64,000 bases of DNA. Source: Balanoglossus misakiensis (Eukaryota; Animalia; Hemichordata). How positions within the stretch are numbered: position 1 is the stretch's first letter; each line of letters begins with the position of its first letter. The notes under the pieces are model-generated. The model was not told the origin of the DNA. It saw only the letters and a list, made by a program, of their open reading frames with translations, and ran no database searches. Below are positions 1 to 64,000 of the stretch, one piece after another. Location: NCBI GenBank assembly GCA_040954595.2, contig CM082588.2, positions 8,478,844-8,542,843 of the forward strand, given 5' to 3'. The translations under genes and the position numbers were made by a program.

Positions 1-236
1 TTTGATTCCAAGGACACCAAGAACTTCTGGCCGTTCCTCCAACAATGTAGACAGCTGTAGAGGGCGCTGTATTTTTACCAACAGTATGATTGGGGTCTGT
101 GTGTCTCCCACATCAACATCTATCTCAGCTTCCAAAGTGCCGGAACCACCAAGTAGTTTTGATAAACCGATTCTGTTTTGGCGTGTGGCATAGACATGTC
201 GAACAACCTCCAAGGCAACCATTGCACCATTGTCAT
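1..236 (-). CDS. G1 exon: second domain X (partial)
   Basis: Acceptor cctgcag|ATGACAATGG; reads [33 protein letters not shown]..., homologous to 1482-1796. Confidence 0.8.
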
Positions 237-3200
237 CTGCAGGTACAAAGATTGATAATAGGCAAAATAAATTGTATGTATTCTCATTAAAATGAGCACA
301 TGTTTTACTCTATATTACGGGAGTATACTTTTTATGGAAACATTTCAAACAAATGAATTATCAGCTATAAGCATAAGAAACCTTTGAGTGATTTTGGTGT
401 TTCGGTTTATTGAAGCGACATTCCCTTGGGAAAATCAGTTCAAAGTGACGCAAACTAATAATTTAGTTTTAAAATAAAAATGCCGGAACATGTAAGTGTA
501 ATGATTTTGCAAGGAATGTCAATTGCAGGAAAGATAAAACAAAGTGAAACGGAAGGTTTTCAGACCGAACTCTGAAATTCGCTTTTGTTCCTGGACACAA
601 GATTGTAATAGAAAATAAATACGGCCTATAATCGAACTTGTTGGGAGCATATTTTTTTATTATTTGGAGGAGATGATATAACAGATGGATGGATATGTTG
701 CAGATAACTGCATTACCTTCGATATTTTTGTCCACAGGTGGCGTAGTTGCAGTTTTTTTCCCCTTGAGTTCGTCCATAGCCTGAAGTAACTGCCGATTTT
801 TGCCCTTTAGTTTGATGTTTTCATCCATGGTCGTTTGATTTTCCTCTTTCAGTTTGATATTTATCATAGTTAGTTTAGAACTTTGGTTTTCACTGCTCTT
901 CAGCATTTCCTTCAGACGCTGACTTGTCTGCCCACTTTCTTCACTTTCCCTCTTAAGGATAGTATATTCCGTCTTCCTGGATTGTAGTATGTCCCGAATC
1001 TCGTTGTTTTCGTTAAAGAGCGAAGTGATGACAGAGAGATAGTTGTCTGTCGAGATTGGTTCCAAGACACGAGCAGCTCCTTCTTTTGAAAAAGATTCCG
1101 CCAGAATCTTGTCCGATTCTTTGGTGCCAGTGTTCAAGATGTTGACTCCATCTTGATTGACAAGTCTCTTCAGTTCTGATGAAAATGTGATTTAACATAG
1201 TTAGCAAAATGTTATAATTAATATGATGTAACCCCATTTGCAATTGGGTCGGAGGCCGTGGAATGCAAATAAATGGGCACTATCTATTTTACTTTACGCT
1301 CGATGTGCAAATCAATGGCAGAATAGTACAGACCTATCTTTAAAATCATACTTCAACATGCAGCCAACTAAATTAAAACATTCCCTTCAGAACAAATTTC
1401 AGCAGCAAGCTATATATGTTGATTAGTTGAATAGAGTATTGTTTGACCAACTTCCCTGCCTAAATGTTTGTGAACACTAACCTTCTCTATCATATCTGAA
1501 TGTCTCTCCCTCTGGTAAGGTGATTGAAGACAACTGTTGGGTATCCAAAATCAAACACCGTCTGATTCCAAGAACACCAAGAAATTCTGGCCGTTCATCC
1601 AACAAAGTAGACAACTGTAGAGGGCGCTGTATTTTTACCAACAGTACGGTTGGTGTCTGTGTGTCTCCCACATCAACATCTATCTCAGCTTCCAAAGTGC
1701 CGGAACCACCAAGTAGTTTTGATAAACCGATTCTGTTTTGGCGTGTGGCATAGACAGACCTGTCAGTCTCCACGGCAACAACTGCGCTCTTGTCATCTAC
1801 ATTCACAAACAACCCAGAGAAAGGCTCAATAAATGATATGTATTCTCATAAAAGAAAACTTTTCAACAGTATTTTTTCTTTTAGTTGAATTCTGAAGTGC
1901 CTATGAAAAAAATCTTCAAACTCATAGCCTGTTAGCTAGAAATAAAAGCAGTCATAAAAATATAGCTGCAAGCAGCGATGACGGGCCCAAGCTTAAGCCG
2001 AAGGTCAAAGGTCATAAGTGGTCACCCAAAATTTGGGCAAGAAATTTTGACCCCATACTGGTCCGTGTCCCACAAGAACAAAATCTCTAGCCCTATTGGT
2101 TCGCCTACAATTATGTATGTGCATAATTAATGAGGTAAAGTGTAAGGCTCCATCAGGAGTTCCATCCCTCCAAATGCCGAGGCTGTAGCTGCTGTGCATG
2201 CCGAGATATGGTAAAGTAGGTCAAAGGTCACCTGAGGTCACCCAAAATTTGGGCAAGAAATTTTGACCCCATACTGGTTCATGTTCAGCAAAAATCAAAC
2301 CTCTAGTCCTATTGGTTGGCCTGGAATTAGGTATGCACATAATTAATGAGATAAGCAGGTGTCACAGGTGACCCTCAATTTTGGCTTTTAAATTTTAGTC
2401 CCAACCCTCCAAACGCCAAGTCTGTACCTGCTCTGGATGCCGAGATATAGGAAAGTAGGTCAAAGGTCACCTGAGGTCACCCAAAATTTGGGCAATTTTT
2501 TTTTACCCTATACTGGTCCATGTCCCACAAGCACAAAACCTCTAGCCCTATTAGTTAGCCCAGAATTAGGTATGCACATAATTAATGAGTTAAGCAGGTG
2601 TTACAGGTGAGCCCAAAATTTTGCCTTTTATTTTGGTCCCATTTTGCTCACGGGCCAATAGAGAGTCACAGTACAGGACCATTGCACAGATGTGGACATA
2701 GCATCATAGCTTAACTATAGAAAGTATAGGCCTATGGCTGGGTCCAAAAAATATGAAATATAATATTTAAAAATCTTCTTCTCAAAATTGACTTGGCCCA
2801 GAGCCTTGAAATTTAGCATGTAGGACACTGACCATATGGTCCGCAAAATGATTGCACAGAATTTTGATATCGTCATTCATATGCAAATTAGGCCCATTTG
2901 AAAATTTTGCCCATATATGGTCATCAGGTCACGTGACTAATTAAACATTCACAAGAGTACAACTCATGCTCTCATTGGCCTGCACCATTGTGCCAAGTTT
3001 GAGATTTGTAGGTTCAGCCGTTTTCAAGATGTACTTGACGAAAAAAACTACACAAGAAAAAGAAGTAGAAGAAAAACCCCAGTAAAACCAATAGGGCCCA
3101 AGCCTGCTGGGCTTGGGCCCTAAAAACTCAACTTGAAATATAATTCTTGCCAAATGCTTCCATCCATAAATAGTAATTACCTTGTTTAGTCAACATCTCT

Positions 3201-6163
3201 CCAAGTTCTGTACACTTTTCTCCACACAAACCACAGACCTCAGAAGATTTCACTTCCGGTACATAGCCTATAATAATTAAAGTTACGAAATCGTCATGAC
3301 ATATATCGTTGAACGCATTTGCAATTTTGACAATGATCCATAAGAACGTGAGTGTACAGATAGAAAGTTTGACAAAGACACATCACAGACACGAGTCTGG
3401 AAATGGAAATAACCAAAGGTTTCAGGTAAAATCCTTCAATTCAAACGAATACACAATGTTCGGCAACAATAACTACATTGTTAAACTATTAGACTTGCCT
3501 TCTTTGATGTACTTCAATTCAGCCAGACATTTTTGATATCTCCATGTCTCTATGGTTGTCTTCAGGTTAACGTCAGACACATTCAGTTTGTGGAGCAATT
3601 CGGGTGTGATCATGTCTGCCTTAAACAGATCTCCCAGTATCCCTTGCCTGTAGTCACGCCATAGTCTCTCCACTGACTTTGATGTCTGGCATACCAATAC
3701 AACATGCAGACTGCCCCGCTTGATTTCTTCAATTTGTATGTTTCCAACACTGTTGAGATGCTCTTTGACTTTTGGTAAATCGTTTTCAGAGCTGCTGTTG
3801 TTGATTATCTCATTTTCGATGAGTTCAACTTGGTCTGGAGTCAAGGTTGGACCGGACACCTCCAGGCTAACTTCGATTTTCCCTAAAATAACATCACTAT
3901 ATTAGATTCAGTGTTTGGGTCTCTTTTCCAAAGTTACTGTTTCATATTTACTTTTTCGAAATGCAAGTACACAATATGCAAAATACCGATTTTCGATTAG
4001 ACCAAACAGAGCTACTGACCGCCAATAAGCGATGTTTTTAAATCGTGACAAGTTGCATCTATTCCTTATCATATTGTGATTCTTGAATGATTTTAACTTT
4101 AATAACCACTATCTGAATTCATCTTCTGAAACAAGAATCTCCATCCTCATGATAGTCCGGTATGCGAAGGTCTTCAGTTATAGAGGAGAACCATTTGATT
4201 TCTGGAAAGGGGGTGGACTGTGTCAGCAGGTTTTTTCCAGTCACTGTAGGCCTACAGCAGTTTTTTCGATTGTCTGTTTCCCCTTTACTTAGGCCTAAAG
4301 TCACTGCAGAAGCAATCACATTTTCTCGTCATCATCATGCCAACAATTCTTCCTCCAAAAAAAACCATCCACCCCTAGAAATCAAATGGTTCTTCCCTGA
4401 TTTCATTAGTTGAAATGGCCGTCAATTATGCAATAGGATATAGCCTACCCAGCTTAGATTTGAGAGTGTCTTCATGCGTTTGTCCAGCACCAGGATTTTG
4501 TTGGCCACCTTCACCAGTTTTATTCAAATCACCACTTTCTGGTCTATTGTTACTTGGGAGATCTTCAACCTGATTTTCTTTTTCGCTTCTACCGGAATTG
4601 GAGACTCTTTGTCCTTGGTCACGAAATGTTTCCTCTTCCCCTAGGGACGGGTGTGAAAAACTCAATTTACTATCACATTCACACTAATTGCACAAATGTT
4701 TCACATTTAAATTGATTCTGGTAAAACATTCAATTGCTTTTGTGTATTAAAATGCATTTTATGCACCGGTAAATCACTGAGAGGCAAACATGTGGCTGTA
4801 TAATATGTTAATATATTGTCATATTGTCATAACTGTGTGTTGTCCAAAGCAACGTATACAGTGCGTGCAACATTCTCTTTATCTATCGCTATTTACCTTT
4901 GGAAGGCTCCTCTGCAGGGTCATCGCATTCTGTAGGACAAAATACACATTCCAACAACTTGGTGTGATGGTCAGCAATAACACCATTCTCAGCGGATATT
5001 TGAAGTGCCGTCTTCAGTTCTTGTGCCGCATTCTTTGCACGGCCATATTCACTTAGGATATCCATGATAGCACATACCCACTTTTCTTTTCCGCTGTCAA
5101 GACTTTCGCTCGGTCCTACGTCACAAGTTTGTACACCAATGGAGGGGAAGTGTTCCTTTAGGAATGTTGCCAGACCTGATTGCTCTGGATGTAGTGTAGG
5201 CACACCAGCAGTGCAGGATAGAAGACCGAATACACCAAATGGGTCTCCTTTAGTTGTGCAATTTATCACGATGTCACACTGCTTCAAATCGTTCTCTAAC
5301 TGGCTTATCGATGCGTTGTTTGGATACATGTGGATATTCAATCGATCGGACATTGTCATCCTCTCAAGCCTCTGTTGACATTCCTCACACGGTTCAGAGG
5401 ATACATATCCTCTTAACTTCCACTTGATTTGCGTAGAGAAATACTTGTATATGTCAGCAACTTTCCCCATGCCACGCGCTACTGCTTCAAATTCTTCCAG
5501 GTCACGCAGCCCTGTTATGGTATGTACAGATAGGACATTGATGGTTTTACGTAAACCGGTTTTATTCACGGAAAGATTGCCGACGTCTTTCTTCATGCAG
5601 GGAATGTATGCAACGTGCTCCACTTGTGAGTTTAACAAAGGTTGAATCTTCACTTCAAACTCCTCATATACTGATGGTCCAACGGAGAGACTAACTGAGC
5701 ACTTTTTTGCATATTCCAGCATTTCATCATCTTTGGCAGCCAAGTCTGAAGGATCTAGGTTCATGTTTTCCGGTGTGTCAGAATAGACAGGAACAAAACT
5801 CGCAGTTGGAAAAACCTCTGCTTGAATACTCTTTGCTGTACCTGCAGTTCCATCCTTACAAGCAGTACCGTATATGGTCGTAATTGGGTGATATTTCATT
5901 AACTGTTGAAAATAGTGTTCGTGTAAAATTAACCAATCACTTGTCGGCTTCCCCTCTTTGATTGGGAGAATCAACTCCACTCTATGACGCCTTGCTTCTT
6001 CAACTTCTTTGTCAGAAGCCTGTAACGCCATGAAGTAAACCTGGTTGTTTTCAACAGCAAGATCGATGGCCAATTGTCTCTCAGTAAGACATGTTGCAAT
6101 ATTGCGATTTCTCGGCCACCATTCCTCTCCGACAACCAACAGACGGTTCACCATCTGTGCCAT
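1..6163 (-). CDS. G1: multi-exon GT4-like / TRADD-N-like / CxxC / domain X / coiled-coil / domain X protein; 3' end runs off the window
   Basis: Exons reconstructed by hand from splice sites and phase continuity: 6163-4897 (ATG, GT-like), 4640-4449 (linker), 3882-3499 (TRADD-N-like, GC donor), 3267-3181 (CxxC), 1796-1482 (X), 1175-717 (coiled coil), 236-<1 (second X). All junctions are phase 1 and in frame. Confidence 0.85.
717..1175 (-). CDS. G1 exon: coiled-coil region (153 codons)
   Basis: Acceptor ttttcatcag| and donor G|gtaatg; E/K/Q/L-rich heptad-like sequence within ORF 469..1137. Confidence 0.8.
1482..1796 (-). CDS. G1 exon: unrecognised 105-aa domain X
   Basis: 315-nt phase 1-1 exon; six highly similar copies in the window. 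Confidence 0.8.
1959..3123. mobile_element. Non-autonomous Helentron/DINE-like element in a G1 intron
   Basis: Absent from the paralogous introns (about 15095 and 34160). Subterminal gggcccaagc at 1983, terminal hairpin agggcccaagc-ctgctgg-gcttgggccct at 3093-3121, internal ~240-bp repeats, A/T-rich insertion site and no evident TSD. The family assignment is inference. Confidence 0.7.
3499..3882 (-). CDS. G1 exon: TRADD-N-like domain
   Basis: IEEIKRGSLHVVLVCQTSKSVERLWRDYRQGILGDLF...LKTTIETWRYQKCLAEL resembles the GS-hydrophobic strand / LxxLWxDYxxGxL / LKTTIxxxxYxxC pattern of invertebrate TRADD-N-like modules. Confidence 0.65.
4180..4400. mobile_element. MITE with ~20-bp TIRs (paralogous copy at about 35243-35452)
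   Basis: ggagaaccatttgatttct ... agaaatcaaatggttcttcc inverted termini. Confidence 0.6.
4897..6163 (-). CDS. G1 exon: GT-B fold, GT4/Glycos_transf_1-like domain
   Basis: N-terminal LLVVGEEW...ERQLAIDLA strand-helix; C-terminal [47 protein letters not shown] matches the GT4 D-x-x-V-x-P-S-x-x-E-G-F-G-x-x-x-x-E-A-x-x-x-G-x-P donor-binding segment in degenerate form. Confidence 0.75.
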
Positions 6164-6949
6164 TTCTAATTGAGAATAAAATATGTTCGTGTTTATACAA
6201 TATTTCCACGCCTCGTCGAAAGAGGAATGCTATGGAAGGTACAATCATTATTGCTGCAGACTCGTTGGCCTGCCACTTTGTGGATTGTCTGTCTCACAAA
6301 GCTCCGAGTGAGGGGTAATATTTCGGATTCGCCGAAACAGTGGATGTTGTAATGGACACACGTGTTGATACACGAAACATTTAAAACCCAGCTTTTCTTA
6401 AATAAGGTAAATGAATAGGAAAGGTCGCAGGTCACTATTTTGAGGTCTTGATATTTTATAATATGGCACTTTATAAGTCGCCTGTTCGTTTGTCTTAAAT
6501 TCTACTATTAACAATTTTGTCAACCCATTTTGTAAGAATATGTGTTGCATGTGTACTGCCGTTTAAGTCGTTGTTGCCAGCAAAATAAAACTGGCATTTT
6601 CCACGTGATATGAATATGAGATAAAATATTCCCTGCTGAAAGAGTGTTAAAGTGAACACTTCGCGTTTTCATCACGACTAATACTAAAAGAAAACTGCAT
6701 TGATACATCGCGGTATTGTACGTTGTAAACTAGTCACTGGTATTTTCATGAGTACATATGCAAATGACAATAACATGGAATACTTTCTACTTGTAAACAT
6801 TGAACGTCATGAATGCTAGAGCGGTGCATTATGACCAGTGAAACGCGGTGATTATATCATTACTTGGTTTGTTATATGCTTGATCCTACCAACTCTCTTC
6901 AGTATAGAATAACATATTTAGTTGTCGACCTTAAAACAACGAAAATTAC

Positions 6950-7145: not shown

Positions 7146-10100
7146 GACAATAATAATAACAGACTTCCATGCCATCTGCATACTTTTTGTGTGGACGGTA
7201 CAGAAGTGACTCGCTGTGCCGGTCCATATATTTTCCCCATAGAAAACAGTAGCATTGAGGAGTGCAAGAAAAGTGCTGACTCAGCATTGTCCACAAGGTT
7301 TTAGACCATCTTATTTCAAAAATGTTGCATAGGAACTCCCAATTTCTCTCTATTTTTGTTTTAAAAATTCATTGATATAAAATATAATTTAAAAACAAGA
7401 ACATTACGATATTACAAAATAAGTAAAACCTTAAAAATGAAACATTTCTGTTCCTCAGATTTTGGTAGATTTTTAATATGTTATTAAGGAGATTCAATAT
7501 TACAGAAAACCGTTGATAAACCTTTTGTTGCATTTTTAGGGTAAGGTCCTTTTATTTCATAAGTGCAGCCAACTATTAGGCCGAACACAGTATATATCAA
7601 ATCCATACTCTGGTTCATTCTAGGTCACCACCCCCTAAGCGACAATGCGTCATCGACCTCCTGTGCAAACAACCAGAAAGAGGTCAGCGATATACACAAA
7701 GGGTTTCTCACTCAATTGTGGCATTCCAAAAGTGAAAGAATGTGAAGTGAAAAAGAAGTCCAACACTCGACTGTCAAATAGTAAAGAATGCGAACATTTA
7801 TGGTAGACTCAGGTCAAAGGTCATTAGTATTACACTGGTAGCATCGCTCGAAATTCTGTCGATAAATTCACAGTGTGTACAACAAATTGTTGGAAAATAT
7901 TTTGATTCAAAAGGTCAACTGAGTTCAGACCAACCTCCCACAAACAGAACAAAACTGTGCAGATCATGTTACTCATGAGGAAGCACAAAATTATATCACT
8001 TCTTTCAAGTCTTTAACGACCTTAAGATTCTAATTCCACATTTCAAACTCCAGAGTACGTGACCTAGTATACCATTACATGTTAACGTTTACCCAACCAT
8101 TTGAAATGTATTTCTCATTTCTTGAAGTCAGTCGATACACATGGCAGCTACATTTTCTGTACTGAAATCATATTGCACTCTCCCAACTTTAAGATTGTGA
8201 ACGGCCTGGCCTTAAAAGTTTAGTTTCTCTTTTGCAGACTCATGGTCCAGGTTAGCTGTTCCGCCGGGGGGAGGTGATATGTTAGTTTCCCCAATCCCCC
8301 TCCGGCGGAACAGCTGCGTTTCCACAGCTAGGTCCAGGTCAAAGAAAGTGTACACTACCTGTCGGTTTAATGCTTACCTGTTGATTTGCACAGAATCGTG
8401 ATTCGGTCTAATAGGACGCCCTCCCTTTGTGATTAAATGTGTCCAAGAGTGTCAGTCACATCAAGTGAACGCGAGAAATGTGATTCACGGGTGAACAGCT
8501 ACCGTGTTGTTGACTCGTACAGATTGCGGAAAAGAACAGTTACAGCCACAGCATACTTTTAGCGACGCCATTGGTGCCAAGCCCAGTTTGACCAAAACGA
8601 GGCTGGTTTCCAGGTCATTCGTGACAGGGCACGTGGAGGGGGGGGGGTGTCTATGTTTGAAGCCTTTTTTACAACAAGCGACTCGGACATGGAGAGGGGG
8701 GGGGTGAGCAAGGTAGAGCTGGTTGACGTCGACCCTGCGTTTGCCTGATCGTCTCCTTTTTGTGAATCTCCAAATAAGGAGAGATGATATAAAATCTATA
8801 TGCAACTCTGCATAAATTATGATCACTGTTTACGTCTTTTCGTGGGACATTTCATGTGCAGTAGGCCTATAGGGGCCTAGATCGATTCAATATATGGACT
8901 AATTGAATGAATTTAATACATAACGCTAACTGCGTGAAATAGTGGTCGTGACATTTTACTCTCAACCAACGATATTTATTTTACACAAAATCATAAACGA
9001 TGTTTCTTTTACTAAAACAGGCTGTATTGATAACACTAATACTAAGGATTTCATCATATGGCAAGGAACTTCAACAAGAAGCTGCTTTTGACATATGCAA
9101 GAAAAATAACAAAATTGGGCAAACGTTATAGACCACAGCTAAAACTTTGATCATAAAACCACCTTGCGCATGCTATTATGTGTTTACCTCAACATTGATT
9201 CTGTCGCCCAGTTTTGTTTACAAAATCTCAATCAATTTGACATCAGAGCAGAACGTTTTCTATTCTGTGCCATTAAATTTTACAAATATCATCCCATAAG
9301 CGCATAATCTTATGACTGTACAAGAAATGGCGTGATATGAAAATTACATTACATTGTATTTGTTTTCAAATTACATCACTGTATGAAAGAAAAGTCAACA
9401 ATTTCGCCATAGATCACCCAGAAAGTTTAGCACTATATAGAAGAAGTTCACATTTATTTTTTATTGTCCTAACTGGACATCTTGAGTAACATGAACGTTT
9501 CTATGCAAATAATTGCAATACAATAAACTTGACAAAAGAAATAAGACAACACACACTGCACCAAACCTCAAAATGAACCAATGACAATCAAGATATTTAC
9601 TCTGAAAACCAATCATATCAAACTGTCGTCAAAACAGGCAATCAACAAATTGGTACTGTGACACTATAGTTTACACCACAAGAAAACTGCTGATGGTAGC
9701 TATGATGTGTCACACAGAAAACTCAATACGTCACACATCACATTCTTTAGTTACCTGAAATGTTCAAATACTAGTAGTATGGTACAATGGGTATGACTGA
9801 TCAAATACTTTACACTTGCGTGTCATTATCTTTTCAAACTTGAAAATCCCAATTTACCGCCAGCCATCGAAATACACTCACTGAATTGTAAACCACCGAT
9901 CGTTCGTTGGTCTACAGCATGTGGATAGAAACATGTTCAATATGGCAAAGAACAGTAAGGGCTTACAAGAAGACTATGTGAATCTGCAGAGGGCGCTATT
10001 TTCTCCTGAACCCAAACTTAACAAGACTAGACACAGCTTTCCTTACAAATGAGTCATGACACATTTTGTCATCTCTTGGTTCTTACGTTTTTCTAAAAAT

Positions 10101-11365: not shown

Positions 11366-11373
11366 AATTTTCT

Positions 11374-12597
11374 TTATTGCTGATTGCAAAATTGGACCCG
11401 TTTCTTTTGTTGAGGGGGCTTTGTTTTCGCTTCCCGTGCCATTTTAGCGCAGGCATAATCCAGACCACACTCTTCTGCTTTGTTCATGTATTTCAGTGCA
11501 TTGGCAGAGTCGCCTTTTGCTTGGTAAACTTCGGCAAGACGATAACATGCCCATGATATGTAATATGGGTCACGGAGGGTGCTGATCAGATGGGTACATA
11601 TTTCACATGCATCACTGTACTGTTTCAAGTATGTGAGGGCAACGGCCTTCTGGAGAGAAGCAGCGGGATACAAACCACCTGCATATGCAACTGCTTTGTC
11701 GAGACACTCTATGGCTTTTAACAGGCACTGATGATTGCTTTCTATCGGATTGTGTCGGTATTTGGCCATGTATGTGACTCCTAGGTTCCACGCGAATAAT
11801 GGATTGTCTGGATCTTGTGCTGCAGCATTGTGAATAACTTGCAGTGCTTTTTCGAAGTCTGGAACATTGCTGTCGCAATAATAACGACGTGCATAAATCA
11901 CCTCGAAATTGGATAAAGGGGTTAATTCGAGTGCTTTCTGGGTGAGTTGACCTGCTTCTTCATAGCGACCTTCTTTGAGTGACAGGTCACTTAAAAGTGC
12001 CAAAGCATAGCTGTGATGGGCATTTTTCTTAAGAACTCTCTCAAGCAAATTTCTTTCTCGTGCCATTATTTCTAAGGCTTCCTTACATTTTGAGCTTCCA
12101 TAGACACGAGAAAGTTTGTGTGAAAGAATGAATGCTTGCCAAAGCAGCCAATCTGTTTGTTCTGGAAGTTCTACTAAAGCACGATCAAAGCTATCAACTC
12201 CCTCATCACACATTTTCTTGACAAAATAAGTTAGAGAGGTTCCCTTGTGAGCATATACATACGCTTTCTGTTTCCCTGACAATTTATCAAGTGACAAAGT
12301 TGCTATCAACTTAAGCGTTTCATCAACTCTCTCCATCTCACCCGACATGAAATGAACCCATGCTTTATCTGCAAGAAGAACCAACTTATCACCAAGTGGA
12401 CCATCGTCGTCACCATCACAGCTGTCAAGTTCTTTCTGGTTGTCGGTGAGGGCGTCATCAAACCACTTCAAAGCGGCGCTTGGATCTCTCTTGTCTTCTG
12501 ATCTCAGTTTGGACACGTACAGGTAACCTTTGATAGCTTTATGGGGAACTGGAGAGAACTCCTGGTTGTGATGTTTAAGGTTGCTGTCCAAATCACA
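11374..12597 (-). CDS. G2 terminal exon: IFIT-like tetratricopeptide repeats
   Basis: LADKAWVHFMSGE resembles IFIT WGNYAWVYYHMG; multiple TPR motifs such as EGRYEEAGQLTQKALELTP; the preceding exon 13214-13335 encodes the IFIT N-terminal signature LLQRFPCHFTWKL. Confidence 0.8.
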   Translation of the reverse strand, partial: CDLDSNLKHHNQEFSPVPHKAIKGYLYVSKLRSEDKRDPSAALKWFDDALTDNQKELDSCDGDDDGPLGDKLVLLADKAWVHFMSGEMERVDETLKLIATLSLDKLSGKQKAYVYAHKGTSLTYFVKKMCDEGVDSFDRALVELPEQTDWLLWQAFILSHKLSRVYGSSKCKEALEIMARERNLLERVLKKNAHHSYALALLSDLSLKEGRYEEAGQLTQKALELTPLSNFEVIYARRYYCDSNVPDFEKALQVIHNAAAQDPDNPLFAWNLGVTYMAKYRHNPIESNHQCLLKAIECLDKAVAYAGGLYPAASLQKAVALTYLKQYSDACEICTHLISTLRDPYYISWACYRLAEVYQAKGDSANALKYMNKAEECGLDYACAKMAREAKTKPPQQKKRVQFCNQQ

Positions 12598-18191: not shown

Positions 18192-18227
18192 TTCTAATTG
18201 AGAATAAAATATGTTCGTGTTTACATA

Positions 18228-29769: not shown

Positions 29770-29800
<31 letters not shown>

Positions 29801-45059: not shown

Positions 45060-45391
45060 CTATCTCTGAAAATGGCCTTTTTTCCCACGGCGTTTTTCTG
45101 ATTGCAGTTCGTTTTCACACTCCTTCACCAATGAGACTAATGCGGGTAGTTCCATTTCTTGAAACAAATCCTTCAGAAGTGTTAAATCGTCATTGCTGAT
45201 ATGACCCTTCTCTTTTAAACGGTAAAATATTTCTGACGGAGATTCCAAATCCTGCAATTCTCGTTTTGGTATGAATTCTTCTCGTAACAGGCCTCTGAGA
45301 TCACGCTCATCACTTTTGTTTAAACGCTTCTCAAGTTTCATGAAAAGGATCTTCAGTGGATTTAATTTTGTTGTTTTAAAACACTCTGAAT
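45060..45391 (-). CDS. G4 terminal exon: death effector domain (DED)
   Basis: [77 protein letters not shown] follows the six-helix DED pattern of FADD/caspase-8. Confidence 0.8.
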
Positions 45392-54300: not shown

Positions 54301-57300
54301 AGAAACATAAGAACCAATAGAGGCGTTCAAAATATCACGATGTGTCATGTCATATTCTGTAAGCACTTGCCTGGTTCAATCAGAATATCTTCAAGTTCTG
54401 AACACTTCTCTCCACATATATCACAGATGTCAGTCGATTTTACTTCCGGGTCAAAAACTACAAAGAAATACGTCAACGTCATCAGATGTTTCATTTATTA
54501 CATTTCCTATTTACAAGCCGAACAAGTTTTTTGTGATGCTGAGAAAGTCATTATAGGGCATTTTATATGTGTTTAAAAGAAACATTTTAATGTTCCAGCC
54601 TCACTGAAATTCACAATCTTAGGTTTGGCCCATGTTTAATAAATAAGAGATTACAGCTCAAAATATTAACATTTTTACATATCGTATACAGCTATTTTCC
54701 CAATCACATACATAATCTTCTTGGATTTAGTTTTGAAAGCATACTACAATTTAACTCGTATAATTTCTGGACATAAAAATATTAGAATAGATCGGATAAT
54801 CCGAAAAAAACACCAAAACCATTTGTGTTTGGTCTGGTCTAATTATTGTTGTCACTGCATATGAATATTGCAAATATACTTGTGCCGATATAACATTAAC
54901 ATGTGACTGTATGAGCAAAGGTTGAGTGACAATTATGTTCGCCAGTTAATTTCATGCTTATACATTTTATAAATAGACCAATTACTTCCTTTAAAGCGAA
55001 CACATAAAAATTATGACTGGGTACAGCTATATTTTAGAAAAAATAGATGGTACTCATCTGATAGACACAATCAGAATGATAATCGTGTTTGCCTCCCTCC
55101 ATAGGGCCTGCTATTCATTTCTTATAATAGGCCCCTAACAGACGCTTTTCAACTACATTTACATATACATGTAACATCATATCAGGTCCAGTAACCGTTT
55201 TCATTTTAAGTTGAGTACAAATGATTGCTCTGAAATCAGCTTACCTTCGTTCATGTACTTCAATTCTGCCCGACACCGTCTATATCGCCACACCTCTATG
55301 GTTGTCTTAAGGGGAACATCTGATACGTTTAATCTATGAAGCGTAGATTCTGTGACGATATCAGCCTTGAATAATTCCCCCAATCTCCCTTGTCTGTAGT
55401 CACTCCATAATTTCTCCAACGCCTCTGATGTCTGACATGCCGACACAACACACCCTTGCTTGATTTCATGAATTGTAATTCCACCAACACTGTTCAGATA
55501 CTCTTTCACCTTTGGTAAATCGTCTTCAGATTTGATGCTGTAAATTTCTCTTTCCATGCGTTCAGCCTGATCTGCAGTCAAGTTGGCACCGGAGACGTCA
55601 ATGTGAATCTCGATATCCCCTGAAATATAGTTTATATTTGAAATAATGCAAATACCTTAATTGTTGTCATTGAATTGACTATAGTGTGATTTGTTATGTT
55701 GTTGTCTCAACTTTAATTCCATTTACTATTACGATAGAATCATGGGTGTGTTTAGGTAATGAATATTTTACCTCGAGTTGATCTGAAGGTATGTGTATAA
55801 GTATGTCCTCCACCAGAAGCTTGTCCGTCGTTGTGGTCATCGTTACCATCGCCACTTTCAAACCCGTTGCCCGGTGGAAGATTTTCACCCGGCCCTCCTG
55901 CGCTGTTGCCATTGGTGATCGAACTTCCTTGTTCCTGGCCTTCGATTGTTTTTGGATGGCCGACATCTAGAAAGAGGTAAGAAGAATTGCAAGTATCTAA
56001 ATGACATATGCTGAAGGTGAGTTTACATCTACGTGTGTAACACTTTGTAGCAAAACCTATCAGTGTTATTGAACATTCATTCAGATACCGATTTAAGTTT
56101 TTTATGCAACGTTTCACGTGTAATATACTATCATTTACCTTTTGAGGATTCTTCCCCAGGGTTTTCGCACTCTGCAGGACTAAGTGTAGAAGAATCCAGC
56201 AATTTCTTTTGTTGAACTGCAATGAAACCATTCTCTGCGGATTTATGAAGTGCTTTACTCAATTCTTGGGATGCGTGTTGAGCACGACCATATTTACACA
56301 GGACAGGCATGATGGTATCTAACCATTTTTCACTTTCGCTATCGACATTTTGGCATTGTCCAGTGTCACATGACGGGACAGAGATGGCGGGGAAGTGTTC
56401 ATCTATGAACGATGCAAGGCCTGATTGCTTTGGTTGTATTGTGGGCACACCGGCAGCACAAGACATAAGACCAATCACACCAAATGGATCACCTTTTGTT
56501 GTGAATATTACCACGAGGTCACACTGCATCAGATCTTTCTCTAAGTGGTCCATCGATGCCTTGTTTGGATATAGCTGAATATTCAACATGTGTGACGCGG
56601 CCATCTTCTCCAGTTTCAGCTGAAACTTTTCGCATAGTGTTGATGTTACAAGTCCTCTGAACTTCCACTTTGTGTTGTAATCGGAGTTGTGAAAATAGCG
56701 AGCAACTTTCCCCATGCTACATGCTGCTGCTTCGAATTCCTCCAGATCTTGCAGGCTTGATATTGTGTGTACAGACAGGACTTCTATTGTGTTCCCCAAC
56801 TCTGAATTACTAGCTGGACGCTGACCAACACCCATCTTTGCCAAGGGAATGTACAGCTCATGCGCCACTTCTGAATTCAGAGAAACTTGAATCTTCCTCT
56901 TGTAGTCATGGCATACTGATGGACCAACTGACAAAATGGCGGAAGCCGCATTGATATATTCCATAATTTCACCATCAAGGATTTCCAAATCGGAAGGCTC
57001 CAAGCTCATGTTGTCTATCATATCCGACAAAACTGGGACAAATCTCGGAATCCCAAGATCTTTTTGAATACACCTTGCAACATCGGCAGTTCCGTTCTTG
57101 CAAGCAGTGCCATATATTGTTGTAATCGGGAGACATTTCTTCAACTCGGGGAATCGGTCAAGGTGACAAATTAACCAGTCCCTTTGCGGTTTCTGATTTC
57201 TCTTTACAGTTGGAAGAATCAACTCCACTCCATGTTTGCTCGCGTCCTCCACCTCTTCGTCAGTTGCTTCCAAAACCATGAAGGAGACTTTATTTTCTCT

Positions 57301-57408
57301 GACAGCAAGGTCTATCGCTAGTTGTCTTTCAGTGATACATGTTGCTATGTTACGCCTTCTGGGCCACCATTCTTCTCCAACAACCAATACTCGATTACTG
57401 TGAGACAT
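45060..57408 (-). CDS. G4: GT4-like / TRADD-N-like / CxxC / (X-coiled coil)x2 / ZU5-ZU5-UPA / death effector domain protein (about 1680 aa)
   Basis: Exons 57408-56139, 55966-55772, 55619-55245, 54457-54371 (GC donor), 54160-53846, 53521-53060, 51967-51653, 51209-50844, 49099-49053, 48610-48320, 47764-47582, 47335-47034, 46809-46341, 45746-45713, 45391-45060 (stop). The sum is 5043 nt and the phases match at every junction. Confidence 0.8.
46341..48610 (-). CDS. G4 exons: PIDD1/DTHD1-like ZU5-ZU5-UPA module
   Basis: [16 protein letters not shown]; [15 protein letters not shown]...EGGKFTS...[10 protein letters not shown] (compare PIDD1 VPHFSWFLVVSRP...EG...VKVIFPPGA); [13 protein letters not shown]; WKDVT; followed by a beta-rich UPA-like exon. 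Confidence 0.75.
49225..49965. mobile_element. Hairpin-ended non-autonomous element with (TCTG)n(TATG)n microsatellite
   Basis: Starts tttttaggtcccat...atgggacct (hairpin); microsatellite at 49285-49470; inverted copy at 52267-52901. Confidence 0.7.
50465..50811. mobile_element. MITE with TTAA TSD and AG...CT termini (Kolobok-like)
   Basis: ttaa|agggacaaagtctctctctcgc ... gcgagagagagactttgtacct|ttaa, with long imperfect TIRs. Confidence 0.8.
50844..51209 (-). CDS. G4 exon: second coiled coil (122 codons)
   Basis: Paralogous acceptor; donor G|gtatgt. Confidence 0.75.
51653..51967 (-). CDS. G4 exon: second domain X
   Basis: 315-nt paralogous exon. Confidence 0.8.
52267..52901. mobile_element. 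Inverted copy of the 49225-49965 element
   Basis: Reverse-complement similarity over about 630 bp; absent from the equivalent G1 intron (about 535). Confidence 0.75.
53060..53521 (-). CDS. G4 exon: first coiled coil (154 codons)
   Basis: Paralogous exon. Confidence 0.8.
53846..54160 (-). CDS. G4 exon: first domain X
   Basis: 315-nt paralogous exon. Confidence 0.8.
55245..55619 (-). CDS. G4 exon: TRADD-N-like domain (divergent)
   Basis: [35 protein letters not shown]...[17 protein letters not shown]. Confidence 0.65.
56139..57408 (-). CDS. G4 exon: GT4-like domain (divergent paralog)
   Basis: Acceptor ag|gATG; [28 protein letters not shown] and [18 protein letters not shown]. Confidence 0.75.
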
Positions 57409-60400
57409 CCTACAAGATGAATATACTATACGAATAAGATGCAAGATATGATTTTTCATTTTAGTGAACATAACACTGTTTTACACATTTTCTTGAACAA
57501 TATGTGTTCATCCTACATGTAGTATGGTTGAAATGTTTGTGTGCGTGGGCCTACATAGGTTGACTGTCACTGACACATATTTACGTATACCAGAACACAG
57601 TGAAAACACCCCCTATTCTAATGGCAAAAGGACTATAGCATTCTGTTTGTTTGGTTTGAAGATTGAACATCATTTCACTTCATTTGGTCACCCTTTCTTA
57701 GCAGGTCATTGACTGGGTTACTGGTTCCAGATTTATATGCAATGATTAAGATGGGGCAATCCATTAAGTCTTTTGTTTTACTTCCTTCACCACATATTTC
57801 ATGATTTATATATTTCAAATCACACATTTTCTTATTTTTAAATTAAATTGGTTTTGTTACTTCACATGTTGAATTTATTAGTCCGAACACAGAATTGCTG
57901 ATTCAAATTCTCATTGGTTCATTTGAGGCCACCACCCCCTAAGCGACAATGCGTCATCGACCTCCTGTGCAAACAACCAGAAAGAGGTCAGCGATATACA
58001 CAAAGGGTTTCTCACTCAATTGTGGCATTCCAAAAGTGAAAGAATGTGAAGTGAAAAAGAAGTTAAACACTCAACTGTCAAATAGTAAAGAATGTGAACA
58101 TTTATGGAAGACTCAGGTCAAAGGTCATTAGTATTACACTGGTAGCATCGCTGGATATTCTGTCAATAAATTCACAGTGTGTACAACAAAATTGACGTCA
58201 AATATTTTGATTCAAAAGGTCAACTGAGTTCAGACCAACCTCCCACAAACAGAACAAAACTGTGCATATCATGTTATTGTTAATGACGAGGAAGTACAAA
58301 ATTATATCACTTCCTTCAAGTCTTTAACGACCTTCAAACTTCTAATTCCAAATTTCAAACTAGAGTAAACAAAATGACAGAGCACTAAGTGACCCAGTAT
58401 ACCATTACCTGTGAACGTTTTACCCAACCATTTGAAATGTATTTTCTTGAAGTCAGTTGATACACATGGCAGCTACGGGGGGGGGGGGGAGGTGATATGT
58501 TAGTTTCCCCACCCCACCCCCCACCCCCGGCGGAACAGCTGCGTTTCCACAGCTAGGGGTCCAGGTCAAAGGTCGTGTACACTACAGCTACCTGTTGGGG
58601 TTACTTACCTGTCGATTTGCACAGAATCGTGATTAGGTCTAATAGGACGTCCTCCCTTTGTGATTAAATGTGCCCAAGAGTGTCAGTCACATCAAGTGAA
58701 CGCGAGAAATGCGATTCACGGGTGAACAGCTACCGTGTTGTTGACTCGTACAGATTGCGGAAAAGGACAGTTATAGCCACAACATACTTTTAGCGACGCC
58801 ATTGGTGCCTAGCCCAGTTTGGCCAAAACGAGGCTGGTTTCCAGGTCACTCGTGACAGGGCATGTGGGGGGGGGTGTCTATGTTTGAAGCCTTTTTTTTA
58901 CAACAAGCGACTCGGACATGGAGGGGTGGGGGTGGGGGCAAGGTAGAGCTAGTGGACGTCGACCCTGCGTTTCCCTGATTGTCTCCTATTCATTGTGAAT
59001 CTCCAAATAAGGAGAGATGATATAAAATCTATATGCAACTCTGCATGAATTATGATCACTGTTTGACGTCTTTTCGTGGGACATTTCATGTGCAGTAGGC
59101 CTATAGGGGCCTAGATCGATTCAATACATGAACTAATTGAATAGATTTAAAACATAACGCTAACTGCGCAAGTTAGTAGTTGTAACATTTTAATCTCGAC
59201 CAACGATATTTATTTTACTAAAATTCATAAACAATGTTTTTTTTACTAAAACAGGCTGTATTGATGAACTTAGGCCTAATACTAAGGATTTCATCACATG
59301 GCTTAGGCCCTATGCAAGAAAATAACAAAAATTGGCAAACGTTATAGAGACACAGCTGGATGAAATAAAAGCTTTGATCATAAAACCAACTTGTTATTAT
59401 ATGTTTACCTCAACATTGATTCTGTTGCACAGTTTTGTTTACAAAATCTCAATCAATTTGACATCAGAGCAGAACGTTTTCTATTCTGTGCCATTGAATT
59501 TTACAAATATCATCCCATAAACGTATAATCATATGACTGTACAAGAAATGGCGTGATATGAAAATTACATTACATTGTATTTGTTTTCAAAGTACATCAC
59601 TGTATGAAAGAAAAGTCAACAATTTCGCCATAGATCACCCTGAATGTTTTACCACTATATAGAAGAAGTTCACATTTAGTGTTTATTGTCCTAACTGGAC
59701 ATCTTGAATAACATGAAAGTTTCTATGCAAATAATTGCAATACGATAAACGTGACAAAAGAAATAAGACAACACACACTGCACCAAACCTCAAAATGAAC
59801 CAATCAACAAATAAGTACTGCAACACTATAGTTTACACCACAAGAAAACTGCTGATGGTAGCTATGATGTGTCACACGGAAAACTCAATATGTCACACAT
59901 CACATTCATTAGTTATCTGAAATGTTCAAATACTGGTAGTATGGTACAATGGGTATGACTGATCAAATACTTTACACTTGCGTGTCATTATCTTTTCAAA
60001 CTTGAAAATCCCAATTTACCGCCAGCCATCGAAACACACTCACTGAATTGTAAACCACCGATCGTTCGTTGGTCTACAGCATGTGGATAGAAAAATGTAC
60101 AACATGGCAAAGAACAGTAAGGGCTTACAAGAAGAATATGTGAATCTGCAGAGGGCGCTATTTTCTCCTGTACCCAAACTCAACAAGAGTGGACACAGCT
60201 TTCCTTACAAATGAGCTGTGATACATTTTGTCATCTCTTGGTTCTTACATTTTGCTAAAAATGAAAAATTTCTGTGACAAAATGAGTTTTTCAAAGTAAA
60301 GTATGAACGTCTTTTGCAACGTTTAAACAAATGCTTCATTCTAACAAATAAAAAACGACAACAACAGTTGAACACATTCTACAACTGAACTGATACAAGA

Positions 60401-61133: not shown

Positions 61134-64000
61134 TTAGTTTTTTTCCTGTTCAGATAACCTTGCTTTGTACTCCTGTGCATACTTGCCCAAGGAATACTCC
61201 TGACCACAGGCTTCTGTTATGTTTGGGTATTTCAGTGCATTGGAAGAGTCATCTTGTGCTTGGTAAACGTGGGCAAGATTATAACATGCCCATAGTATGT
61301 AATATGGGTCAGAGAGGGTGCTGATCAGATGGGTATATATTTCACATGCATCACTGTACTGTTTCAAGTGTGCGAGGGCATGGGCCTTCCACAGAGAAGC
61401 GTCGGGATACAAACCACCTGCATATGCAACTGCTTTGTCGAGACACTCTATGGCTTCTAGCAGGCACTGATGATTGCTTTCTATCGGATTGTGTTGGTAT
61501 TTGGCCGCGTATGTGGCTCCTAGGTTAAACGCGAAATATGGATTGTCTGGATCTTGTGTTGCAGCACTGTGAATAACTCGCAGTGCTTTTTCGAATTCTC
61601 CAACATTGCTGTAGCAGTAATAACAACGTGCAGAATCCACCGCGAAAGGGGATAAAGGGGTTAATTCGATTGCTTTCTGGGTGAGTTGACCTGCTTCTTC
61701 ATAGCGACCTTCAGTGAGTGACAGGTCACTTAAAAGTGCCAAAGCATAGCTGTGATGGGCATTTTCCTTAAGAACTCTCTCAAGCAAATTTCTTTCTTGT
61801 GCCATTATTTGTAAGGCTTCCTTACATTTTGAAATTCCATAGACACGATCACGTTTTTGTAAAAAGACGAGTGCTTGCCAAAACAGCCAATCTGTTTGTT
61901 CTGGAAGTTCTACTAAAGCACGATCAAAGCTATCAAATCCCTCATCACACGTTTTTTTTCAAAATAAGTCAGAAAGATACCCTTGTGAGCATATACATAC
62001 GCTTTCTGTTTCCCTGACAATTTATCAAGTGACAAAGTTGCTATCAACTTTAGCGTTTCATCAACTCTCTCCATCTCACCCGACATGAAATGAACCCATG
62101 CTTTATCTGCAAGAAGAACCAACTTATCACCAAGTGGACCATCGTCGTCACCATCACAGCTGTCAAGTTCTTTCTGGTTGTCGGTGAGGGCGTCATCAAA
62201 CCACTTCAAAGCGGCACTTGGATCTCTCTCGTCTTCTGATCTCAGTTTGGACATGTACAGGTAACCTTTCATAGCTTTATGGGGAACTGGAGAGAACTCC
62301 TGGTTGTGATATTTAAGTCTGTTGTCCAAATAACACTGTAAGACCTACAGTACATGGAAAGGCATACTATATTGTCACGTGCAAACCTCAGGTCTCAGGC
62401 TCATTAACTCACATAATGTAAGAGCTTCAACTGACACAAACATTCAACAAATAAATTTTACACTTTAAATGATGCGAGAATTAGGTATTCAGGATGTTTC
62501 TTATTACGTTTCAATTAACTTTAGGGGATAAATTACTATCATCAATGGAATAAGTTGTTAAACATTTTCTTAATTTTATGATATTCAAACCAATCACAGA
62601 CAGATGTAATGAAACGCTAAACAGAAAAACATAAATAAATGTCCTCACCTCAAAACTCTCGTCACAAAATTCTTCGAGTTTCCAGGTAAAATGGCAGGGA
62701 AACCTCTGCAGTAATTCTTCATAGGACTTTGCTGTATGCTTCAATCCCGTTATGTGTGTAACTGAAAATTCTATTGAACAGTAAAAACAATTTGGGTTAT
62801 AAACTGATTTCACAATTTTAATTTTAAATTGAGATTGGTCTATTGGTCTTTTTGGTATTCCAACATTTTGGGAGAGAGTTGAGTTGTATCAACCAGTGAA
62901 TGAAATATTAATAAGCGCAACAACGTAAATATCTATCAAAAGAAACTAAAACAACTAAAATAACGTCAATAATGAGTGATTTTATTCATTCAGTTTATTG
63001 AAGCAATATTCCCTTGGGAAAATCAGTTGAAAACTAATAATTGAGTTTTAAAATAAATATTCCGGACCATGTTAAAGGTATACGGCCACCTATGGTTATC
63101 ATGCATGGCAAATTGTGATCTAACCAATCACAGATTTTCAGTGGGTGGCACATGCGAAAAAAGAGCGCCGCCTTATGTTCTTTAGAACGATCAAATACCC
63201 CATTTCAGCCATATATGGGCAATTGTGTAAATTGGACGTGACTGTATACCTTTAAGTATAATCATTTTGCAAAGATTGTCAATTGCAGGAAAGAAAGGGA
63301 AGATTTTGAGACTGAACTCTTAAATTTGCTTTTGCTCCTAGACCCAAGAAATCTGTGATAGACAATAAATTTGGCCTTTCAGGGTCATGCATACTTTCAT
63401 AATCGAAGTTGTTAGGAGCATATTCTTTTTTTTTCAGTAGGAGCAGATGATATAACTGATGCATGGATATGTTGCACATAACTGCATTACCTTCGATGTT
63501 TTTGTCTACAGGTGGCGCAGTTGCAGTTTTCGTTTCCTGAAGTTCGTCGATAGTCTGAAGTAACTGCCGATTTTTGTCCATGGTCGTTTGATTTTCCTCT
63601 TTCAGTTTGATATTTATCATGGTTAGTTTCGAACTTTGGTTTTCACTGCTCTTCAGCATTTCCTTCAGACGCTGACTTGTCTGCTCACTTTCTTCACCAA
63701 GAACACGAATTCTTCCTTCACTTTCTCTCTTAAGGAGCGTATATTCCCTCTCCTTGGATTGTAGTATGTCTTGAATCTTCTTGTTTTCGTTAAAGAGCGA
63801 AGTGATGACAGAGAGATAGTTGTCTGTTGAGATTGGTTCCAAAACACGAGCAGCTCCTTCTTTTGAAAAAGATTCCGCCAGAATCTTGTCCGATTCTTTG
63901 GTGCCAGTGTTTAAGATGTTGACGCCACTTTGATTGACAAGTCTCTTCAGTTCTGATGAAAATGTGATTTAACATAGTTAGCAAAATGTTATATAAGATT
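61134..64000 (-). pseudogene. G5 (5' part outside window): coiled coil / IFIT-like TPR gene with a 1-nt frameshift
   Basis: Exons 63952-63491, 62770-62649 (LLQRFPCHFTWKL) and 62335-61134. The last exon is 1202 nt because an A-run at 61952-61959 is one base short. This could be a real lesion or a homopolymer sequencing error. Confidence 0.7.
63076..63251. mobile_element. MITE with TTAA TSD (Kolobok-like)
   Basis: ttaa|aggtatacggccac ... gtgactgtatacct|ttaa; the empty site accatgttaagtataat is present in G2 (about 13662) and G3. Confidence 0.85.

What the first reader, a model, noticed from the sequence alone, without database searches (positions are those of the whole stretch)
1..64000. Tandem array of modular immune-like proteins: GT4 / TRADD-N / coiled-coil chassis with a swappable C-terminus (IFIT-like TPR or ZU5-ZU5-UPA-DED)
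Seen in sequence: the scattered ORF fragments splice into five co-oriented paralogs sharing one N-terminal chassis. G2, G3 and G5 end in IFIT-like TPRs, while G4 ends in a PIDD-like ZU5-ZU5-UPA module plus a DED. Established: IFITs are antiviral RNA-binding TPR proteins, PIDD1 and DED proteins nucleate caspase platforms, TRADD-N is a TRAF-binding adaptor fold, and GT-B domains are known fused to NLR-type proteins in corals. Inference: this is a paired sensor/executor system in which diversified TPR sensors and a death-fold executor co-oligomerise through the shared TRADD-N / X / coiled-coil stalk, similar in logic to paired NLR loci. I know of no description of this architecture, but I could not search.
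Basis: partly seen in the sequence, partly recalled or inferred. Interest (0 to 1): 0.92.

Follow-up and report, generated by a model that had tools for sequence, protein, structure and literature searches.

The report
IFIT sensors on a dead glycosyltransferase
A tandem array of five related genes, likely from an acorn worm, is predicted to join a glycosyltransferase domain that lacks its usual catalytic residues to either a fast-changing IFIT-like domain or a cell-death signalling module; these are likely intracellular pathogen sensors, which would place IFIT-type domains well outside jawed vertebrates.

Summary
The array is real. Three complete minus-strand models splice without stops (G2 1334, G3 1346, G4 1680 aa); G1 and G5 are cut by the window, and G5 has a frameshift. 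The chassis is known: Kaur et al. 2021 (PMC8195603) describe GT4+TRADD-N proteins with variable ends, including TPRs and ZU5-ZU5-UPA-Death. Glandiceps and Ptychodera models share the GT4-TRADD-N-X-coil-IFIT order.

Not found in that paper or my searches: (1) The TPR cap is an IFIT homologue by HMM, Foldseek and ESM Atlas, although IFITs were reported as jawed-vertebrate only. (2) Its differences cluster on the TPR groove (24 of 48 against 55 of 266 other sites), with pN/pS up to 2.8, while the chassis is conserved. (3) The GT4 lacks all four canonical donor-binding residues, as does its hemichordate clade (at most one kept), so it is likely a pseudoenzyme. (4) G4's first ZU5 keeps the His-Phe-Ser self-cleavage motif.

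Sensor-executor pairing is untested; I give it about 25%. The joins between chassis and cap have no RNA support here. Verdict: new variant of a known kind, interest 0.62.

The parts
4897..6165 (-). G1 GT4-conflict exon with ATG; degenerate EX7E at 5219-5245
4449..4640 (-). G1 low-complexity linker exon
3499..3882 (-). G1 TRADD-N-like exon (GC donor)
3181..3267 (-). G1 small Cys exon (CxxCxxxC)
1482..1796 (-). G1 X exon, predicted ferredoxin-like fold
717..1175 (-). G1 helical / predicted coiled-coil exon
1..236 (-). G1 second X exon, runs off the window
8330..8830 (-). Conserved upstream block with a donor-like site at 8378; candidate promoter or non-coding first exon of G1
   Evidence: function inferred
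16925..18193 (-). G2 GT4 exon
16516..16704 (-). G2 linker exon
15469..15852 (-). G2 TRADD-N-like exon
15157..15243 (-). G2 Cys exon
14623..14937 (-). G2 X exon
13893..14309 (-). G2 coiled-coil exon
13214..13335 (-). G2 IFIT N-terminal exon (CHFTW motif)
11374..12597 (-). G2 IFIT-like TPR terminal exon
24333..24855 (-). Conserved upstream block of G2
35950..37218 (-). G3 GT4 exon
35502..35693 (-). G3 linker exon
34637..35020 (-). G3 TRADD-N-like exon
34222..34308 (-). G3 Cys exon
33679..33993 (-). G3 X exon
32765..33232 (-). G3 coiled-coil exon
32084..32205 (-). G3 IFIT N-terminal exon
26587..27792 (-). G3 IFIT-like TPR terminal exon
56139..57409 (-). G4 GT4 exon (older, divergent copy)
55772..55966 (-). 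G4 linker exon
55245..55619 (-). G4 TRADD-N-like exon
54371..54457 (-). G4 Cys exon
53846..54160 (-). G4 first X exon
53060..53521 (-). G4 first coiled-coil exon
51653..51967 (-). G4 second X exon
50844..51209 (-). G4 second coiled-coil exon
49053..49099 (-). G4 47-nt bridging exon (phase 1-0); predicted only
48320..48610 (-). G4 first ZU5 exon
47582..47764 (-). G4 exon with end of ZU5a (His-Phe-Ser at 47726-47734) and start of ZU5b
47034..47335 (-). G4 second ZU5 exon (His-Phe-Ser lost)
46341..46809 (-). G4 UPA exon
45713..45746 (-). G4 34-nt bridging exon (phase 0-1)
45060..45391 (-). G4 DED terminal exon
58558..59063 (-). Conserved upstream block of G4
38177..50183 (.). Segment with no homology to the other repeat units apart from dispersed repeats; carries the ZU5-UPA-DED exons in place of the IFIT exons and G3's upstream block
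63491..63952 (-). G5 coiled-coil exon (5' part of gene outside the window)
62649..62770 (-). G5 IFIT N-terminal exon
61134..62335 (-). G5 IFIT-like TPR exon with a frameshift in a poly-A run near 61951-61959

Best explanation
This is a tandem family of GT4-TRADD-N genes, likely hemichordate, whose products are likely intracellular pathogen sensors: the IFIT-like groove likely binds a foreign ligand and differs sharply between copies, while the GT4 domain lacks its canonical catalytic residues and likely serves as a non-enzymatic brake or decoy. Inferred sequence of events: ligand binding at the C-terminal cap reconfigures the TRADD-N switch (the model of Kaur et al.), the X-coil stalk oligomerises, and the protein either sequesters the ligand as IFITs do or recruits downstream adaptors. 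G4 is a recombination product in which an intron-containing ZU5-ZU5-UPA-DED segment replaced the IFIT cap. It is predicted to cut itself once, after the first ZU5, leaving a ZU5-UPA-DED fragment like PIDD1-C that could signal when the N-terminal part is disturbed. Shown: exon structure, domain homologies, loss of GT4 residues, groove-centred variation, mosaic history. Inferred: ligand, immune role, self-cleavage, oligomerisation.
For: Same GT4-TRADD-N-X-coil-IFIT order in Glandiceps XP_077977119.1 and two Ptychodera models. IFIT homology from three methods: the profile matches IFIT5 residues 8-361 collinearly (E 2.9e-10); Foldseek ranks 1-14 are all IFIT chains (best E 5.6e-10, TM 0.43-0.57); ESM Atlas top hits are IFIT clusters at 0.96. 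Chassis dN/dS is mostly 0.2-0.5, against pN/pS 1.56, 1.62 and 2.80 in IFIT columns 121-385 (p 0.058, 0.069, 0.002 at kappa 1; 0.013, 0.013, 0.0002 at kappa 2). Variable sites fall at TPR groove positions in 24 of 48 cases against 55 of 266 elsewhere (p 4e-5; positions from PMC1261162). GT4: 0 of 4 canonical residues in G1-G4, inside a clade of 25 that keep at most one, while 86 of 147 fetched domains keep three or four. His-Phe-Ser is intact in ZU5a and lost in ZU5b; PIDD1 cuts at this motif (PMC9162469). Spliced contigs of run X3 match ZU5-module introns. Mosaic signal p 7e-14.
Against: No ligand, expression or induction data. The positions matching IFIT5 K150 and R186 are Tyr and His/Arg/Gln, and the modules are net slightly acidic, so 5'-triphosphate RNA binding is not supported. 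The selection test uses three recombining paralogues, one frameshifted. The column-120 split was chosen after seeing the data, and whole-exon p values at kappa 1 are 0.34, 0.13 and 0.04. TPR registers were set by eye. The folded IFIT model is the Glandiceps module (42% identical to G3's exon), not the window's own. TRADD-N scores below the Pfam cut-off. The coil-to-IFIT and coil-to-ZU5 joins were not tested with RNA. No fetched relative carries the ZU5-DED cap on this chassis. G3 may lack a promoter. An Asp remains at the first EX7E position, and the weight of each Glu varies among GT4 enzymes (PMC8760489).
Confidence: 0.55

Rival explanations
1. Paired sensor and executor: IFIT-capped copies sense, and they activate DED-capped G4 by co-assembling through the near-identical X-coil stalk.
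For: X and coil exons are 85-94% identical between G4's first cassette and G1, G3 or G5 although their GT4 exons are only 56-59% identical, so mixed assembly is sterically plausible. With a dead GT4 and no death fold, G2 and G3 have no visible output of their own. IFIT1-IFIT3 and IFIT2-IFIT3 complexes appear among the PDB hits.
Against: The introns around X are as homogenised as the exons (90%), so recent recombination explains the identity without selection for pairing. The genes are all co-oriented. No relative with the ZU5-DED cap on this chassis was among the fetched proteins. Kaur et al. propose an intramolecular switch.
Confidence: 0.25
2. The GT4 domain is still an active effector with altered chemistry or another donor; the cap senses and the enzyme modifies invader or host molecules (the role Kaur et al. 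give GT4).
For: GT4 is under purifying selection (dN/dS 0.21-0.35); an acidic residue is kept at the first motif position; GT4 is proposed as an effector in PMC8195603.
Against: The Arg, the Lys and the second Glu are all gone, and the positions drift freely across the clade, whereas most other fetched relatives, including hemichordate ones, keep them.
Confidence: 0.1
3. G4 is a recent neutral chimera or a mis-joined model: the ZU5-UPA-DED exons belong to a separate inserted gene and only the IFIT-capped genes are functional.
For: The coil-to-ZU5 join rests on a 47-nt predicted exon; the ZU5 module has many divergent copies in the runs laid; the captured segment also removed G3's upstream block; no homologue has this order.
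Against: Fourteen junctions give one open frame of 1680 aa; G4 has its own upstream block and no IFIT exon follows its coil; TRADD-N+ZU5+ZU5+UPA+Death fusions exist in corals.
Confidence: 0.1

Closest known systems
GT4 + TRADD-N (DEDD2 clade) proteins of cnidarians, cephalochordates and hemichordates (Kaur et al. 2021, PMC8195603)
   Same: N-terminal GT4, central TRADD-N, variable C-terminus, lineage-specific expansion. Their tables list GT4+TRADD-N+TPRs in Branchiostoma, GT4+TRADD-N+Bcl-2 in Saccoglossus (XP_006811676, which falls in my degenerate clade) and HEPN+TRADD-N+ZU5+ZU5+UPA+Death in corals.
   Different: Their TPRs are called TTC28-like, and IFIT is not named in the main text or in the 13 supplements searched (file 4 is cut). 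Loss of GT4 catalytic residues is not mentioned in the passages read. The X-coil cassette is not in the rows seen.
Vertebrate IFIT1/2/3/5
   Same: Collinear homology from the N-terminal CHFTW motif, same superhelical fold, tandem clustering, coding sequence mostly in one large exon.
   Different: Fused behind about 880 aa of chassis; K150 and R186 positions not conserved; about 15-19% identity; reported absent from acorn worm and lancelet in PMC3688568.
PIDD1 (LRR-ZU5-ZU5-UPA-Death); NLRP1 and CARD8
   Same: ZU5-ZU5-UPA followed by a death-fold domain; His-Phe-Ser after the first ZU5.
   Different: DED instead of Death domain; second cleavage motif lost, so only a PIDD1-C-like fragment is predicted; pseudo-GT4-TRADD-N-X-coil in place of LRRs.
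Paired plant NLRs with integrated decoys (recalled, not checked here)
   Same: Clustered paralogues with a sensor-like and an executor-like member; a dead enzyme domain that could be a decoy.
   Different: No NTPase domain; co-oriented tandem array; pairing not shown.

Membership tests
GT4-TRADD-N conflict proteins (Kaur 2021) | GT4-conflict domain (PF20706) above cut-off | tested here: met
   120, 107 and 111 bits against 26 for G1, G2, G4; G3 is 96% identical to G1
GT4-TRADD-N conflict proteins (Kaur 2021) | TRADD-N domain after GT4, between globular domains | tested here: met
   Pfam below cut-off, but the exon matches XP_006811676, annotated GT4+TRADDN-DEDD2+Bcl-2 in the paper's table, at E 3e-16
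GT4-TRADD-N conflict proteins (Kaur 2021) | Variable flanking domains among paralogues | tested here: met
   IFIT cap in G2, G3, G5; ZU5-UPA-DED in G4; Bcl-2, ankyrin and NHL in relatives
Active GT4 glycosyltransferase | EX7E motif | tested here: not met
   D-x7-L or D-x7-M in all four; motif register checked against BshA structures; role from PMC8760489
Active GT4 glycosyltransferase | Arg and Lys that bind the donor diphosphate | tested here: not met
   Thr and Glu at the columns where most relatives have Arg and Lys; the role of these two columns is partly recalled
Active GT4 glycosyltransferase | Sugar-transfer activity | not testable with these tools
   needs an assay
IFIT | Collinear homology with the N-terminal CHFTW motif and IFIT-type TPR superhelix | tested here: met
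   fold and Atlas tests used the Glandiceps module
IFIT | 5'-triphosphate-binding K150 and R186 | tested here: not met
   Tyr and His/Arg/Gln by alignment to mouse IFIT2; mapping to IFIT5 numbers inferred from the 36-residue spacing; importance from PMC13197388
IFIT | Stand-alone protein of about 470 aa | tested here: not met
   predicted C-terminal module of 1334-1346 aa proteins; same fusion in relatives
IFIT | Induction by virus or interferon through ISRE sites | tested here: inconclusive
   13 IRF-like matches against 2.2 expected, but they reduce to about four sites copied with the repeat unit; induction itself untestable
IFIT | One clade with vertebrate IFITs in a tree | not tested
   no vertebrate IFIT sequence was held for tree building
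PIDD1-like self-cleaving ZU5 proteins | ZU5-ZU5-UPA plus death fold | tested here: met
   UPA rests on weak homology
PIDD1-like self-cleaving ZU5 proteins | His-Phe-Ser after each of the two ZU5 domains | tested here: not met
   present after ZU5a only
TRADD-N superfamily (for domain X) | Structural or profile match of X to TRADD-N | tested here: inconclusive
   model pLDDT 80 with ferredoxin-like topology; best Z 7.0 to generic ferredoxin-like, ACT and RRM folds; hhalign to the array's own TRADD-N probability 0.1% on thin profiles
Paired sensor-executor receptors | Physical and functional coupling of the two partners | not tested

The most novel reading that the evidence does not exclude
Hemichordates run a diversifying receptor repertoire in which IFIT-derived grooves under arms-race selection are the specificity modules, a catalytically dead GT4 is an integrated decoy or brake, and a self-cleaving ZU5-UPA-DED paralogue is the shared executor reached through the homogenised X-coil stalk. 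IFIT-type domains would then date from at least the deuterostome ancestor and be wired to death signalling, before interferon.
Probability: 0.2. Interest if true: 0.9.

Novelty: new variant of a known kind. Interest (0 to 1): 0.62.

Why it matters
IFITs were reported to arise with jawed vertebrates and interferon (PMC3688568). An IFIT-homologous module in this genome and in two named acorn-worm genera, diversifying on its ligand groove, pushes the fold's immune use back and gives a handle on its pre-interferon ligand. A whole clade of GT4 domains without catalytic residues changes the reading of GT4 as an effector enzyme in these proteins and makes a decoy or brake model testable. The phase 1-1 exons and the mosaic X-coil cassette show a concrete DNA-level route for swapping caps.

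Tried and rejected
No whole genome is held, so family size and other loci could not be surveyed. A word-based search for longer GT4 relatives found none of 4083 candidates; the exhaustive search did. A single-sequence PDB search with G3's TPR exon gave only generic TPRs, no IFIT; IFITs appeared only with profiles, and designed TPRs still outrank them there. A word-based search with the Glandiceps IFIT module gave one true relative among 27 hits and no vertebrate IFIT. The idea that X is a second TRADD-N was not supported: no Pfam, PDB-sequence or Atlas hit, and TRADD-N was not among the listed fold matches. No RNA holder was listed for G3. The G5 frameshift was not resolved: no contig showed an inserted base there, which proves nothing. 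Runs X4 and X5 matched only short repeat pieces. Contig depths were not used as copy numbers. The IRF-site excess was rejected as non-independent. G4's DED exon was checked for a donor that would fuse it to G3; it ends in a stop. Complex prediction for the stalk was not available. Three look-ups of earlier scan findings returned nothing. Paper searches with no hit.

Full report
Observation. The window is animal DNA of about 38% G+C made of a repeated unit on the minus strand. I placed exons by splice sites conserved between copies. The unit is GT4, linker, TRADD-N, a small Cys exon, X and a predicted coiled coil, all phase 1-1 after the ATG; G1 and G4 repeat X (G4 the whole X-coil cassette). 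G2 and G3 continue into a 122-nt exon and a 1.2-kb TPR exon and give 1334 and 1346 aa without stops. G4 continues into seven exons ending in a DED and gives 1680 aa. G1 and G5 are cut by the window, and G5's TPR exon is frameshifted in a poly-A run. Between G1 or G2 and G4 the GT4, TRADD-N and Cys exons stay 69-75% identical while their introns fall to 45-59%, with dN/dS near 0.3 for GT4 and TRADD-N, so these exons are real and under selection.

Relatives. The exhaustive search gave 300 proteins at E up to 0.001, of which 150 were returned. The best are from Glandiceps, Ptychodera and Saccoglossus, so the source is likely a hemichordate. Glandiceps XP_077977119.1 has GT4, TRADD-N, two X-coil cassettes and the IFIT-like cap in the same order; Ptychodera XP_070569242.1 and a second Ptychodera model on a contig of the same length have one cassette. 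The first Ptychodera model runs on into another GT4 start, which suggests a tandem array there too. These are database gene models; I did not see their evidence.

The cap is an IFIT homologue. A single-sequence search found only generic TPRs. A profile with the relatives matched IFIT5 residues 8-361 and IFIT1 9-326 as single collinear stretches; IFIT2 and IFIT5 were the best natural hits, though designed TPRs scored higher. The N-terminal CHFTW motif aligns with IFIT1, 2 and 3. A model of the Glandiceps module (pLDDT 73) returned IFIT chains at ranks 1-14 in Foldseek, ahead of OGT. The ESM Atlas gave IFIT clusters at 0.96. Against a canonical IFIT role, the positions matching K150 and R186 are Tyr and His/Arg/Gln (mapping inferred), and the modules are not basic overall. 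PMC3688568 (abstract and passages read) found no IFIT in acorn worm or lancelet. Searches for invertebrate IFITs gave no paper reporting one among the listings; I read passages of only two of those papers, and the library lacks most subscription papers. I recall database names calling some invertebrate proteins IFIT-like, but did not check this.

The cap is diversifying. In columns 121-385 of the G2/G3/G5 alignment pN/pS is 1.56, 1.62 and 2.80 (p 0.058, 0.069, 0.002 without transition bias; all below 0.014 at kappa 2), while columns 1-120 give 0.30-0.68. The split was chosen after seeing the data, and whole-exon tests are weaker (p 0.34, 0.13, 0.04 at kappa 1). Variable sites occupy 24 of 48 groove positions against 55 of 266 others, using positions 2, 5, 6, 9, 12 and 13 from PMC1261162 (passages) and registers set by eye. 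This is the pattern expected of a ligand-binding surface in an arms race; three recombining copies cannot prove it.

The GT4 is likely dead. All four copies have D-x7-L or D-x7-M in place of EX7E, and Thr and Glu where relatives have Arg and Lys. Of 147 fetched domains long enough to score (from 153 proteins), 86 keep three or four of the four residues and 54 keep at most one. The window's copies sit in a clade of 25 that all keep at most one (support 0.978; a 50-sequence subset gave the 24 degenerate ones as one clade at about 97). The 14 of 21 non-window members that I named are all hemichordate. Hemichordates also have intact GT4s. The motif's role is from PMC8760489 (passages), which also notes that the weight of each Glu varies. 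The domain is nonetheless conserved (dN/dS 0.21-0.35), so it has a job, likely non-enzymatic.

G4. Its C-terminal 550 aa align with a Branchiostoma ZU5-ZU5-UPA protein and a Ptychodera protein and end in a DED. His-Phe-Ser follows the first ZU5 at residue 1252 and is lost after the second. PIDD1 cuts at such motifs (PMC9162469, section 6 read), so one cut is predicted. Contigs of run X3, labelled 'DNA?' by guess, skip 46810-47033 exactly, with GT-AG ends on the minus strand. They also join 47764 to 48324 and 45359 to 45711 with a few unlike letters between, and have a loose end at 47337 that by eye resembles the previous exon. The two larger runs of the same sample show none of these joints. 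X3 is therefore likely RNA. These contigs differ from the window by several percent to about 15%, so they come from paralogues or alleles. The joins between chassis and cap were not covered by this test.

How caps are swapped. G4's GT4-to-Cys region is old (dS about 1 against the others) while its X exon and the next intron are about 90% identical to theirs. Informative sites switch topology between the GT4-linker half and the rest (p 7e-14). Homology to the repeat unit stops near 50184 and resumes near 38176, so a 12-kb intron-containing segment stands where the IFIT exons and G3's upstream block would be. Recombination in and after the X-coil cassette, helped by uniform exon phase, is the likely route.

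Domain X folds as a four-stranded ferredoxin-like domain (pLDDT 80) with only generic matches. It occurs in the three closest relatives and weakly in a few more. Its family is open.

What is known. Kaur et al. 2021 (PMC8195603; abstract, sections 11 and 12, passages of 13 and 15, and term searches of the supplements, file 4 being cut and only the first 30 places per term shown) describe the GT4-TRADD-N class in cnidarians, cephalochordates and hemichordates, the constant-plus-variable design, TPR and ZU5-UPA fusions, a TRADD-N switch and ZU5 self-cleavage. IFIT is not named in the text or supplements searched; rows I did not see may hold this exact order under the label TPRs. A search on glycosyltransferase, NLR, coral, TRADD and hemichordate returned only that paper.

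Mechanism and verdict. Most likely each protein is a self-contained intracellular sensor with a variable cap, a dead GT4 brake or decoy and a TRADD-N-X-coil switch and stalk (0.55). Pairing of IFIT-capped sensors with G4 is possible, and the lack of any output domain in G2 and G3 favours it somewhat, but nothing here shows it (0.25). The finding is a new variant of a known kind; interest 0.62.

Noticed in passing
window 10917-11606: The last TPR repeat of G2 is duplicated. The downstream copy resembles the G3/G5 ending and is interrupted by a 119-bp palindromic element (11166-11284) with a 9-bp direct repeat on each side; G2's coding end is the more divergent copy.
   Followed up: partly
window 37219-45059: G3 has no copy of the upstream block found before G1, G2 and G4. 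Its phase-1 acceptor would accept G4's phase-1 donor at 45713 in frame, so read-through from G4 is conceivable; no evidence.
   Followed up: partly
window 3499, 15469, 34637, 54371: GC-AG introns: after TRADD-N in G1-G3, and after the Cys exon in G4.
   Followed up: no
window 55245-55619: G4's TRADD-N has Gly-Cys and a two-residue gap where G1-G3 have Gly-Ser. This may be the conserved Ser of Kaur et al.; that identification is my inference.
   Followed up: no
window 45060-45391: G4's DED has no RxDL motif; the importance of that motif is recalled.
   Followed up: no
window 19700-21080 and 42058-43129: Decayed LINE-like fragments upstream of G2 and between G4 and G3; a weak RVT_1 hit for 1 of 7 frames scanned.
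   Followed up: partly
window 2002-2642 and 29229-31895: Arrays of a 237-239 bp repeat inserted in introns of G1 and G3.
   Followed up: no
window 44624-44865 and 50461-50815: Fold-back elements inside the captured segment or at its edge.
   Followed up: no
window 45729: A contig of run X3 leaves the sequence inside the 34-nt exon and goes on for 171 unlike letters, hinting at DED exons with other upstream partners.
   Followed up: no
window 60900-63000 and 44950-49250: Hundreds of short contigs at 85-99% identity lie on both caps (483 and 286 in run X1), which hints at many more paralogues or alleles.
   Followed up: no
proteins P0004, P0009, P0017, P0038: Other members of the degenerate GT4 clade carry Bcl-2, Fn3, ankyrin or NHL domains.
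   Followed up: partly
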